DNA from: Amphiscolops sp. MND2022
Lineage: Eukaryota
Assembly: GCA_964187785.1 (NCBI GenBank)
Contig: OZ076409.1
Location: 50,470,001 to 50,534,000 of the forward strand
DNA length: 64,000 nt
Direction of reading: 5' to 3'
The stretch's first letter is position 1, and the number at the start of each line of letters is the position of its first letter. The translations under genes were made by a program, and so were the position numbers. Of this stretch, positions 42,898 through 46,249 are shown in pieces. Below the pieces are notes generated by a model. That model saw only the letters and a program-made list of their open reading frames with translations. It did no database searches and had not been told where the DNA came from.

Positions 42898-43937
42898 ATG
42901 TATTCAATTCATAACCGGGATGACTTGGAAAAATTGAAAAACTTACAAGAAACAAAATCTTTACCACGCAAAGAAAGATTAAAAGAGAAACTAGGTAAGC
43001 AAGGCTTTCATTACGAAATGGAAGAAGTTTTTGAACCCGTAACAGAAAACCAGAAACAAAATATTTCTAAACAACAAGAACTTTCCGAAAAGCAAATTCA
43101 AGCACTACGAGATTCGACTCAAACTACAACACATGCAATACAAGATCAAACTAGAGCAAAACGAGAATCGAGTAACACAATGCAAAAATAAATTAAAGAA
43201 GGAATACAAGAGTATGATGAAATTACGAATCGCAAAAATCAACTTCTTACGAGTCTTGTTAATTCAAACCAAGTTGATTCTAGTATTGTAAAGACAGTTT
43301 CCAACCTTCTAAATGACAAAAACAAAAGTCAATTTAGTTTAGAACCAATTATGGGTAATCCAAAATTATTCATGATTAACCCCTCCAATCCACAACAAGT
43401 ATTAATTAAAAATACTAAACTAACCTTCCTGGGTAGTGGTAACATATATGATCTAAATGACCCAGATCTTCAATATTTTATAACTAATACAAAATTTGAT
43501 GAAGATATGAATAACAAGAACATAATTTATAGTTTCCTAAATGATATGAATTATAACACGAATTATGGGGATAAAAAATCAATGAGATATTATTTTAGTA
43601 AAGATTTGCATAATCAATACTATCAATTGGGAAGCGGATTGCCGAGCTACGCGCGAAAGCTATCGCGAAAGCTATCGCGAAAGCTATCGCGAAGCAATTC
43701 ACAGAGCTACGCGCGAAAGCTATCGTGGAGCCATGCAAAGCAGTACGTCTTCCTCCCATCTGATCCAGACGAAATAGTGGATCAATTAAAACTTCTTTAT
43801 TTTGAAAAATTAGAAAAATAGGAGGAAATGACAACCCCCAACTCAATGAACAAATCATAGCATTTGTAGATAAACTATTGGAGTATGAATGCATTACAAC
43901 AAATCAACACCAAAACATGATCTCCTCAATTATTTAA
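42898..43937 (+). pseudogene. Conserved Polinton protein of unknown function (coiled coil plus C-terminal LPSDPDEIVDQLKLL...GGNDN domain)
   Basis: ORFs 42898-43191 and 43351-43821 are in the same frame, split by one TAA; a frameshift at about 43810 leads to IGGNDNPQLNEQIIAFVDKLLEY, resembling the DPNEL..RL.LL...GN...NEI..I...L motif of Polinton ORFs. Confidence 0.6.
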
Positions 43938-44560
43938 AGGATCAGTTTGTGGATTGAAGATCTTGTAATTTGGATTAGATTCCTTACATTTCCTGTGCCT
44001 ACTCTCATTTTTATCTTCCAGTCTGTTTATTAATAAATAATTGAATTTTTCGTTCCATGCCTCTCTGCACAAACTTTTGAATTCCTCATAAGACATATCA
44101 AAACCTGCTATGTCCCTATGAATGTATGAATGTGTTCTACATCTTTCAGTGTTTGTTGAAATAAAATTATTATATTCGAATTGTTTCTAACTGTCTTTTT
44201 TGGTGCATCAAAATAACTCTGACATAAATAATAAACATCACACAACTTGTGTTTTCCTCTAGTAAAAAATGGAGCAATCAATTTCTGGTTGGAGTCTCAC
44301 ATATCATCAAAAACTACGCAACACCGCCTATACTCTTCCAAATCCCCCACAATTTCTTCCACTTCTATTCCTTGCGAAGCTCCACCAATATCAATGTCCT
44401 CATATTGTTCCGGACTCCTCGTAATGATACGAGTTTGTTTCTCTGGATCTTCGAAACGAATCAATTGTAATTTATTCAACAACAAATGAGTCTTACCACA
44501 AAATGATGGAGATGGACCAACTATTACCGTTCTATTACACTTATTATCATTATCATTCTC

Positions 44561-44597
<37 letters not shown>

Positions 44598-44981
44598 GTG
44601 TGGGAACCTGCGCGGGAACCTGCACGGGAAGCAAGTCACCCCCAGTATGTGTGGGAACCTGCGCGAAGCTACGCGAATAGCCTTGCGAATACCCCTGTGT
44701 AGGAACCTGTGCGAATCTATGCGAATAGCCCTGCGGATACAAGTGTTGTTTCTTAATGTGGGATCTTAAATAACTCTTATTTAATTCTTTACTACAAAAT
44801 TCACACCTCACCTTTTTATTAAAACATTCTTTACAAGTACTGTACAGTTTACCATTTTTGTATGAATAGAAGTCCATTTTCATCTCATTACAAACTTTAC
44901 ATCTTTTTTACTAGAACAATCATCACACACATTACTCTCACTACTTTCATTACAGAATAAACATCTTGTTATTGTACTCAT
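43926..44981 (-). pseudogene. Packaging ATPase 1 (A32/FtsK-like) with N-terminal multi-zinc-finger region
   Basis: Reconstructed across frameshifts: CLFC..CDDC..CKVC..CKEC..CEFC-x-HIKKQH, poly-N linker, Walker A GPS(PS)FCGKT, Walker B VVFDDM, FTRGKH, QSYF, VRNNSNIIILF. Confidence 0.85.
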
Positions 44982-45269
44982 TTAATTAGTAAGAAGTCAC
45001 TAAAATTCACTAAGCATGCACTATGTAATTACTCAGTATAATTATGTAATCATTAAGCAAATTTCACTAAATCACTATGTATTCACTATACAATCGCTAA
45101 GAGCATTTATTTCTCTAAAGTTGAAGAAATAGTGAAATTTAGAGAAAATAAATGCTCTTAGTAATGCTTAGTGATTGTATAGTGTTTCTTAGTGAATAAC
45201 CACTAATTACTCAGATTTCTAAGAATCACTAAATAATCACTAATTACTCAAGAAATCACTAAGGTTTCA

Positions 45270-46249
45270 CTAAACTTTATCTAGATTATTTTTAGTAAAA
45301 TTTTTTGCATGATCATATATACTTTTGTTAAAGTCCACTTTAACTGAATCACTAATTAGTGGTTGTTGCATACGCTCAACGTAGTTGTCTATTTTGGATT
45401 CATTCACTTTTATTTTATTTTGTTTACAATAATATACATAATAAAAAGCTATGTTGTATGGTGTTATTTTAATTGTCTGGTCAGACATCTCCTCTATAAA
45501 TACCTTCAATTTGTTGTATTCCTCACAACTGAAAAAATGACTTTCATAAGCAACGTAATACTCTGGACTCCACTTGTGGCGCTTACTAGAATCATAAAAT
45601 ATATTGTACTTGTGGTTTAATACCTTGTATTTCTGACTCTTGTGTCAAATTCAAATATACCAAATTCTAATTGATCGCGGAAGTATTTCCACCTAAGAAG
45701 GAAACCAGGATCTTTAATTGAATAAGTTTGTACAGTCGACTCGAAAAAGTTATCTGGGTTATTAATTGTTAAGTATATTTTGAAACAATTTTCTCTTACA
45801 ACTGGGAGAACATCCTTTGCATAGTGAGCTAAATATATCACCTGGATGTTATGATGTCTACCAAACCGGAACAAGTCTTCTACTTTTGTTTTAAGACTTT
45901 TGTATGCACCTGCATCATCCAGTAATACCGTTTTATTAGCAACTGATTCAATGACTATTTTTTCTAACTGTAACAAGGGTACAAAGTTGGAAGCAGGAAA
46001 CTATTTTTCATCTCGTCCAAATACTACATAACTTCGTTGAATCTGTGTTAAATAATGCTTGAGGAAAGATGTCTTCCTGACGCACTACTTCCATAAATTA
46101 ACATTATGGTATTACTAACTGGTTTGTATGCGTATTACTAACTGGTTGAGTTAAATCTTATTCTTGTTCTTATCCTTCTTCTTGGTTTGTAAGATGAGAG
46201 TATTTGAACCCTTCAAATTGTAATAGTTTTTTGTATTTTTTTATACCAT
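45270..46249 (-). pseudogene. Packaging-type ATPase 2 (A32/FtsK-like)
   Basis: Walker A LIYGSSASG(K)T with a 1-nt deletion at about 46075, Walker B VLLDDAG, LFRFGRHHNIQVIYLAH, VVRENC; the C-terminus continues via frameshift into ORF 45270-45509; start inferred at TAAATG 46249. Confidence 0.8.

What the first reader, a model, noticed from the sequence alone, without database searches (positions are those of the whole stretch)
43926..46249. Two tandem, divergent packaging ATPases, one fused to a five-finger zinc-binding domain
Seen: two separate minus-strand genes each have Walker A, Walker B and the RH/KH arginine-finger motif (GPSFCGKT/VVFDD/RGKH/QSYF versus GSSASGKT/VLLDD/FGRHH/LAHY). They are too dissimilar for a recent duplication. 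ATPase 1 has four CxxC pairs plus a C2H2 finger upstream of a poly-N linker; ATPase 2 has His in place of the usual sensor Gln and a C-terminal extension. Known: Polintons typically carry one A32-like ATPase. Inference: a heteromeric packaging motor, a sequence-specific ZnF packaging adaptor, or a decoy acting on a helper virus.
Basis: partly seen in the sequence, partly recalled or inferred. Interest (0 to 1): 0.75.

Follow-up and report, generated by a model that had tools for sequence, protein, structure and literature searches.

The report
Polinton with second, membrane-anchored packaging ATPase
A decayed virus-like Polinton element carries two very different DNA-pump-type ATPase genes, one fused to zinc fingers and likely the capsid-filling motor, the other with a predicted membrane anchor that would let it move DNA at a membrane, a second motor I found no description of in these elements.

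Summary
The two ATPase genes are real. They lie in a decayed 14.9-kb Polinton (39997-54869, 6-bp target duplication), and both are broken in this copy. In sister copies the zinc-finger fusion of ATPase 1 is one ORF (68 of 120 long homologues), but it has three zinc sites, not five fingers. The same design (membrane helix, A32/B204 fold, His sensor, helical tail) recurs in 14 of 15 distant clusters, with the catalytic motifs kept. ATPase 2 groups with these and lies about 5 changes per site from ATPase 1, so it is no recent duplicate. The two genes share at least 30 sister contigs, judged by equal contig length. Best reading: a soluble zinc-finger packaging motor plus a separate membrane-tethered pump. 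The heteromer is untested and the decoy is disfavoured. I got no genomic context for the distant homologues, so their range and role stay open. New variant of a known kind; interest 0.6.

The parts
39997..54869 (.). Decayed endogenous Polinton/Maverick (adintovirus-type) element, 14,873 bp
   Evidence: Termini AGTAGT...ACTACT flanked by a 6-bp duplication CCCGGA on both sides; inverted repeats 93% alike
39997..40631 (+). Left terminal inverted repeat, with a 13-bp tandem array at its inner end (40547-40606)
54235..54869 (-). Right terminal inverted repeat, with the same 13-bp array (54260-54320)
43926..44981 (-). ATPase 1 pseudogene: zinc-binding domain, variable linker, A32-like core with Gln sensor. 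Frame changes near 44905, 44550, 44125; stop at 44299
   Evidence: one ORF of about 320-376 aa in sisters
44743..44963 (-). Zinc-binding domain of ATPase 1: two four-Cys sites plus one CX2CX11HX4H finger
   Evidence: model modules (pLDDT 58-79 over residues 1-80)
44489..44518 (-). Walker A of ATPase 1 as read in the window (GPSPSFCGKT)
45270..46449 (-). ATPase 2 pseudogene: N-terminal membrane helix, stalk, A32-like core with His sensor, helical C-terminal extension. Several frame changes 5' of the core, one inside Walker A near 46075, stop at 46003, frame change near 45640
   Evidence: intact sisters of about 380-415 aa
46273..46329 (-). Remnant of the predicted transmembrane helix of ATPase 2
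   Evidence: 19-residue hydropathy 1.83 in the window frame; aligns with the N-terminus of sister P0122
45824..45826 (-). His at the sensor position of ATPase 2
   Evidence: His in 148 of 158 sisters and 14 of 15 distant homologues
46473..47159 (+). Integrase remnant, head-to-head with ATPase 2 (start codons about 23 bp apart)
   Evidence: weak rve_3 hit E 0.044; start read
47404..48552 (+). Major capsid protein remnant (double jelly roll)
   Evidence: PF21738 E 5.6e-4 and 6e-8
48697..52644 (-). Family B DNA polymerase remnant in many frames, with N-terminal zinc fingers and an endonuclease VII-like insert
   Evidence: motifs KLMNNAFFGKT and YMDTDS seen directly (motif names recalled); PF02945 E 9e-6; no polymerase Pfam hit on the fragments
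40720..42871 (+). Putative protease, putative penton and a DUF5679 / cupiennin-like gene
   Evidence: DUF5679 E 0.0042; protease and penton labels are recalled from motif and position, not confirmed by a search

Best explanation
This Polinton family encodes two unrelated-looking A32/FtsK-HerA ATPases: ATPase 1, fused to a basic three-site zinc domain, is likely the soluble motor that fills the capsid, and ATPase 2, with a predicted single N-terminal membrane helix, is likely a separate, active, membrane-tethered ring pump. SHOWN: both genes, the fusion, the hydrophobic helix, the His sensor and the kept Walker A/B and GRH motifs in sisters and distant homologues. INFERRED: (a) ATPase 1 is the packaging motor, because it keeps the Gln sensor, has no membrane helix and points into the capsid/penton gene block; its zinc domain would grip viral DNA, possibly the repeat arrays at the inner ends of the terminal repeats. 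(b) ATPase 2 was acquired from another viral lineage or by a very old duplication, and is kept for a different job. (c) Its ATPase faces the cytosol or nucleoplasm on a long stalk. By likeness of architecture to coupling proteins and filamentous-phage export ATPases (recalled), it would move the viral DNA or nucleoprotein at a membrane step such as assembly on a membrane or exit from the cell. The copy in this window is dead.
For: Fusion: five CxxC upstream of the ATPase in one ORF in 68 of 120 long homologues, at least one in 111 of 120; finger domain as conserved as the core (0.91 vs 0.93 pairwise identity, linker 0.49; 62 sisters). Membrane helix: 19-residue hydropathy >=1.8 upstream of Walker A in 127 of 128 ATPase 2 sisters with at least 60 upstream residues (158 examined, 143 with a Walker A match), against 0 of 113 for ATPase 1; in 14 of 16 distant proteins, 14 of 15 clusters; no second such segment in 16 of 16 proteins checked. 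Catalytic motifs in 15 hand-picked longer distant homologues: Walker A 13, Walker B 15, GRH 15, His 14, RxN 15. Fold: model pLDDT 78.5; best solved match STIV B204 packaging NTPase (Foldseek E 4.3e-7; Z 15.3, rmsd 2.8, 167 aligned); Pox_A32 above cut-off for sisters (34.9 vs 22.8). Age: ATPase 2 sisters nest among distant homologues, with 3.59+1.5 changes per site to ATPase 1. Pairing: 30 contig lengths shared between lists of 119 and 157, jitter control mean 0.03; 8 of the 30 ATPase 1 contigs under 100 kb are shared. Basic residues follow the helix in 4 of 4 sisters checked (+4 to +6).
Against: No function was tested. I found no genomic context for any distant homologue, so they may be the only ATPase of their genomes, or not be viral. 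ATPase 1 scores just under the Pox_A32 cut-off (22.7 vs 22.8; 2 of the 3 sisters scanned had no A32 hit) and its model is poor (pLDDT 49), so calling it the true motor rests on motifs and position. The fusion count comes from a search limited to proteins of 250 aa or more, which favours fused forms. Pairing is inferred from equal contig lengths, not seen positions, and large contigs can hold several elements. The charge bias after the helix is not kept in distant homologues (-5 to +3). The helix is a hydropathy call only. The tree has no reference Polinton, virophage or poxvirus ATPases and is midpoint-rooted with long branches.
Confidence: 0.45

Rival explanations
1. Heteromeric or two-part packaging machine: ATPase 2 anchors the motor to a membrane (for example an inner virion membrane) and ATPase 1 selects the DNA through its zinc domain; they act in one ring or one complex.
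For: Adjacent, co-oriented genes that travel together; both keep the GRH arginine-finger motif used between ring subunits (role recalled); complementary extra domains; medusavirus has three A32-like ATPases, two found in virions (PMC6450098, passages).
Against: The cores are about 25% identical and about 5 changes per site apart; each keeps a full motif set and so could form its own ring; only one other weakly hydrophobic ORF was seen among four checked in the element (best 1.7), thin support for a membrane-containing particle.
Confidence: 0.22
2. Role swap: ATPase 2 is the real packaging motor of a membrane-associated particle, and ATPase 1 has become mainly a DNA-binding or regulatory protein.
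For: [quoted passage not shown]
Against: ATPase 1 keeps Walker A, Walker B, GRH and Gln in most sisters (Gln in 113 of 120) and its core is highly conserved.
Confidence: 0.13
3. Decoy or poison subunit: ATPase 2 traps the packaging ATPase of a helper or competing virus at a membrane.
For: A membrane anchor could sequester partners; the sensor residue differs from the usual Gln; nearest folds include giant-virus A32 proteins.
Against: All catalytic motifs are kept across homologues that are only 23-46% identical to a sister, which a decoy need not do; no helper virus is known here.
Confidence: 0.1
4. Passenger gene: ATPase 2 was captured from another virus and merely amplified with the element, with no needed role.
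For: It nests among environmental homologues of unknown origin; sister conservation could reflect recent spread alone; no DNA of sisters was at hand for dN/dS.
Against: Present at similar abundance to ATPase 1 (at least 266 vs 358 long homologues); domains are more conserved than linkers (0.82-0.89 vs 0.53, 100 sisters) across subfamilies that differ by 30-35%.
Confidence: 0.1

Closest known systems
Polintons/Mavericks (Polintoviricetes), adintoviruses of Starrett et al. 2021 (PMC8502044)
   Same: Terminal inverted repeats, target duplication, polymerase, integrase, capsid genes, an FtsK-like ATPase, a cupiennin-like gene of the Beta-type module (label by resemblance to the paper's description).
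   Different: Described with one FtsK/A32 gene; 'FtsK2' and 'transmembrane' had 0 hits in the supplement text I could search (file cut when stored, maps partly pictures). Here there are two, one with zinc sites and one with a membrane helix.
A32-like clade of FtsK/HerA ATPases: STIV B204, poxvirus A32, virophage and PLV ATPases (PF04665)
   Same: Fold, Walker A/B, GRH motif, RxN motif.
   Different: ATPase 2 has His for the sensor Gln, an N-terminal membrane helix with stalk, and about 100 residues of helical tail; B204 is a 204-residue soluble domain.
Medusavirus and other giant viruses with several A32-like ATPases (PMC6450098)
   Same: More than one A32-like gene per genome; two found in virions.
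   Different: Giant genome, not a 15-kb element; no membrane anchor or zinc fusion mentioned in the passages read.
Adenovirus IVa2
   Same: [quoted passage not shown]
   Different: No IVa2 family hit was listed for ATPase 2 or its homologues and no IVa2 among its top 50 fold matches; IVa2 has no membrane helix (recalled).
Membrane-anchored FtsK/HerA pumps: TrwB/VirD4/TcpA coupling proteins, FtsK, Zot / filamentous phage pI
   Same: Same superfamily fold (TcpA Z 13.3, FtsK 11.6, Zot 11.5, TrwB 10.5) and an anchor-plus-ATPase layout (recalled).
   Different: Bacterial systems; only weak P-loop-level sequence hits; ATPase 2 is closer to the viral A32 branch.

Membership tests
Polinton/Maverick (Polintoviricetes) | Long terminal inverted repeats with AG-rich ends and a 6-bp target duplication (recalled) | tested here: met
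Polinton/Maverick (Polintoviricetes) | [quoted passage not shown] | tested here: met
   PF21738 32.7 bits over cut-off 27
Polinton/Maverick (Polintoviricetes) | Protein-primed family B polymerase | tested here: inconclusive
   Polymerase motifs visible; no polymerase Pfam hit on the fragments
Polinton/Maverick (Polintoviricetes) | Retroviral-type integrase | tested here: inconclusive
   rve_3 E 0.044 on a fragment
Polinton/Maverick (Polintoviricetes) | Cysteine protease and minor capsid protein | tested here: inconclusive
   Candidate ORFs at 40720-42418 gave no relevant family hit
Polinton/Maverick (Polintoviricetes) | An A32-like packaging ATPase | tested here: met
   Present, in two versions
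A32-like packaging ATPase (ATPase 1) | Walker A, Walker B, GRH motif, Gln sensor | tested here: met
   GRH in 116 of 120 and Gln in 113 of 120 sisters
A32-like packaging ATPase (ATPase 1) | Profile or fold match to A32/B204 | tested here: inconclusive
   Pox_A32 22.7 vs cut-off 22.8; low-confidence model still returns viral packaging ATPases first but nothing clear among solved chains; profile match to the ATPase 2 family at 97%
A32-like packaging ATPase (ATPase 2) | Profile and fold match to A32/B204 | tested here: met
A32-like packaging ATPase (ATPase 2) | Gln sensor at the end of strand 4 | tested here: not met
   His in 148 of 158 sisters and 14 of 15 distant homologues
A32-like packaging ATPase (ATPase 2) | Soluble single-domain protein (as B204; general rule recalled) | tested here: not met
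   Hydrophobic N-terminal helix in 127 of 128
A32-like packaging ATPase (both) | Hexameric ring that translocates DNA into a capsid | not testable with these tools
Adenovirus IVa2 (ATPase 2) | [quoted passage not shown] | tested here: met
Adenovirus IVa2 (ATPase 2) | Sequence or fold match to IVa2 | tested here: inconclusive
   Not listed; absence from a list does not exclude it
Classical tandem C2H2 DNA-reading fingers (ATPase 1 N-terminus) | Array of CX2-4CX12HX3-5H fingers (spacing recalled) | tested here: not met
   One finger, CX2CX11HX4H in 63 and CX2CX11HX3C in 4 of 67 parsed sisters
Bacterial coupling proteins / Zot (ATPase 2) | Sequence membership of TrwB, VirD4, FtsK or Zot families | tested here: not met
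   All such hits are below their cut-offs and limited to short stretches; the likeness is of architecture only

The most novel reading that the evidence does not exclude
ATPase 2 defines an undescribed, widespread family of membrane-anchored viral A32 ATPases with a His sensor, and Polintons that carry it run two DNA motors: one that selects and packages the genome and one that drives the genome or particle through a host membrane. That would give these elements a membrane-linked assembly or non-lytic exit route like bacterial conjugation or filamentous-phage extrusion.
Probability: 0.22. Interest if true: 0.85.

Novelty: new variant of a known kind. Interest (0 to 1): 0.6.

Why it matters
Polintons are assumed to form virions, but none has been seen (stated in 10.64898/2026.06.19.733378, passages), and how they leave or enter cells is open. 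A conserved membrane-anchored motor gives a concrete, testable handle on that step and suggests that some of these elements assemble on, or cross, a membrane. It also warns that surveys and trees which take 'the' ATPase as a single-copy marker can pick the wrong gene in such elements. The zinc fusion offers a testable way for the packaging motor to pick its own DNA, though earlier unchecked notes suggest that fusion is common among Polinton ATPases and so is the less surprising half.

Tried and rejected
No host genome was available, so sister copies were studied as proteins only. Scans for loci of either ATPase found nothing usable: viral contigs (none; 14 loci, 0 of 14 with a profile hit, rejected as chance), metagenome contigs (none), genome contigs (1 locus, a bacterial two-component regulator region by my reading, rejected), phage records (none). 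No sequencing run was listed; this says nothing on expression. No two-chain model of ATPase 1 with ATPase 2 was obtained, so binding is simply untested. The ATPase 1 model was too poor for fold claims; the zinc domain had no clear Atlas match (best 0.90, unnamed clusters). The third protein search was filled by near copies. A sequence search of solved structures gave only P-loop-level hits. An IVa2 link through the His was considered and left unsupported. A recent duplication of ATPase 1 was rejected. Literature: searches for 'polinton'+'two ATPases' (0 papers), and plus two with a guessed host-group name gave no description of a two-ATPase Polinton or a membrane-anchored A32 in the listings and passages I saw; most subscription papers and bioRxiv supplements are not searchable, and Iyer 2004 and Dellas 2016 were not held.
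Full report
SETTING. The finding lies in a decayed Polinton/Maverick element at 39997-54869. It has terminal inverted repeats of about 635 bp that are 93% alike, AGTAGT ends and a 6-bp duplication CCCGGA on both sides. It holds remnants of a double jelly-roll capsid gene, an integrase (weak), a family B polymerase (motifs seen) and candidate protease and penton genes (labels recalled). The host is a eukaryote; an animal is inferred from the gene set, not shown. No host genome was held, so other copies were studied through protein databases.

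OBSERVATION. Both ATPase genes exist, on the minus strand, and both are broken. ATPase 1 (44981-43926) has its zinc domain, linker and core in different frames and a stop just after Walker B; its Walker A reads GPSPSFCGKT. ATPase 2 has a frame change inside Walker A, a stop at 46003 and a change near 45640. Walker B, the GRH/GKH motif, the Gln of ATPase 1 and the His of ATPase 2 are as reported. The two cores are hardly alignable, though their profiles match at 97%.

ATPASE 1. A search limited to proteins of 250-2000 aa gave 358 hits, of which 120 were listed, 69-90% identical, all from ENA contigs. In 68 of 120, five CxxC motifs precede the ATPase in one ORF; 111 of 120 have at least one; 9 have none. 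The length limit favours fused forms, and I did not search the shorter class. Spacings are 8-5-(18-24)-6-11 residues in the 67 of 68 that parsed. That gives two four-Cys sites and one His-containing finger, three zinc sites in all, not five fingers. The domain is basic (net +10 to +12 in 64 of 67) and as conserved as the core (0.91 vs 0.93; linker 0.49). The linker runs 47-105 residues. The last finger has 11 residues between Cys and His, one short of the classical spacing (recalled), and becomes CCHC in one subfamily, so a zinc-finger code cannot be applied. The model was poor (pLDDT 49; 58-79 over the fingers), and its searches are weak evidence. Earlier AI notes from other genomes call such fusions widespread; I did not check them, but they lower the surprise of this half.

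ATPASE 2. Of 158 sisters, 143 matched Walker A and 128 had at least 60 residues before it; 127 of those 128 carry a 19-residue segment of hydropathy 1.8 or more, against 0 of 113 for ATPase 1. A word-free search of 1.84 billion representatives gave 79 hits, many of them fragments of close copies. Among the longer distant ones, 14 of 15 clusters carry the same single helix (the exception has only 36 upstream residues). In 15 hand-picked distant proteins Walker A is intact in 13, Walker B in 15, GRH in 15, the His in 14 and RxN in 15. They come from ENA, JGI, Logan and NCBI contigs, mostly 1-8 kb, two of 28 and 46 kb. The model of a natural sister (pLDDT 78.5, pTM 0.61) shows a long N-terminal helix, a disordered linker, the ATPase core and a helical tail. 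Its best solved match is the STIV B204 packaging NTPase, with VirB4, HerA and TcpA 1-2 Z units lower; its best viral matches are A32-like ATPases; the Atlas returns A32 clusters of mostly Preplasmiviricota at 0.92. In a tree of 30 cores, the six sisters nest inside the distant group and the branch to ATPase 1 is about 5 changes per site. The tree lacks reference families, is midpoint-rooted and has long branches, so it shows age, not donor.

PAIRING. Thirty contig lengths are shared between the ATPase 1 list (119 distinct) and the ATPase 2 lists (157 distinct), against 0.03 expected for equal numbers by chance; they include contigs of 15, 23, 41 and 49 kb. Both lists are truncated. This is indirect, but with the window it indicates that the pair is the standard gene set of this family. 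I could not learn whether the distant homologues also sit beside a second ATPase or a capsid gene: every locus scan was blank or chance (see Tried and rejected).

MECHANISM. Shown: two old A32-like paralogues with different add-ons and full catalytic motifs. Inferred: ATPase 1 is the soluble packaging motor and its basic zinc domain holds viral DNA; the 13-bp arrays at the inner ends of both terminal repeats are a candidate site, untested. ATPase 2 is a single-pass membrane protein with its ATPase on a stalk, probably cytosol-facing (basic residues follow the helix in the four sisters checked, but not consistently in distant ones). The His probably still serves as a phosphate sensor: IVa2 and ABC ATPases are described with a His there, and some ring helicases use His likewise (recalled). 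I put 0.45 on a separate membrane-tethered pump acting at assembly or exit, 0.22 on a joint machine, 0.13 on a role swap, 0.10 on a decoy and 0.10 on a passenger gene. Binding between the two was not tested.

COMPARISON. The element works like and, on the features I could test, belongs with Polintons. ATPase 1 fits the A32-like family by motifs. ATPase 2 has the A32/B204 fold but fails two family traits (Gln sensor, soluble domain), so it is best called an A32-derived family, not a standard packaging ATPase. Several A32 genes per genome are known in medusavirus. I found no report of this in Polintons.

PAPERS SEEN. PMC8502044: passages, section 3.2, supplement term search on a cut file. Passages only: 10.1101/2023.10.06.561300 (25), PMC11071308, 10.1101/2022.05.25.493380 (57), PMC10551542, PMC11071296, PMC8715426, 10.64898/2026.06.19.733378 (103, 104), PMC11296320, PMC5894146, PMC6450098. 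All others: search listing only. Genome maps in supplements that I could not read (bioRxiv files, picture PDFs) may already show two-ATPase elements, which bears on the novelty claim.

VERDICT. Observation partly confirmed; interpretation partly supported and redirected. The surprising part is the conserved membrane-anchored second ATPase. New variant of a known kind, interest 0.6; 0.85 if it proves to be a membrane-crossing motor.

Noticed in passing
window 40547-40606, 54260-54320, 43652-43725, 52336-52376: A 13-bp tandem array sits at the inner end of both terminal repeats, and the related word GCTTTCGCG occurs 8 times in the 14.9-kb element and 0 times in 49 kb of flanks (copies are clustered and the word was picked after seeing it). 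Candidate target for the zinc domain.
   Followed up: partly
window 46449-46473: ATPase 2 and the integrase start head-to-head about 23 bp apart, so their promoters must overlap each other's coding regions or be shared.
   Followed up: no
window 51350-52644 (-): The polymerase region begins with several further zinc-finger-like motifs and holds an endonuclease VII-like domain at 50894-51229: zinc modules are added to more than one gene of this element.
   Followed up: partly
proteins P0116, P0118, P0119, P0120: A subfamily (about 70% identical ATPase core) has a CCHC last finger and an Asn/Asp-rich linker, yet keeps the fusion.
   Followed up: partly
window 43652-43725, 44648-44740, 49197-49230, 52834-52874: 12-nt-unit tandem repeats lie inside several coding regions and keep the frame, giving hypervariable linkers.
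   Followed up: no
   Followed up: no
window 52761-53249 (-): ORF with a glycine-rich hydrophobic hairpin (best hydropathy 1.7); possible membrane-active protein, no family hit.
   Followed up: partly
window 39456-39702: A perfect 76-bp palindrome and an adjacent 68-bp-arm inverted repeat lie about 300 bp left of the element, probably small non-autonomous transposons.
   Followed up: no
window 3489-7264 (+) and 28052-32064: Exon-like pieces resembling the Arp2/3 subunit ARPC2, and a decayed LTR-retrotransposon pol region (both labels recalled); they show a eukaryotic host chromosome.
   Followed up: no
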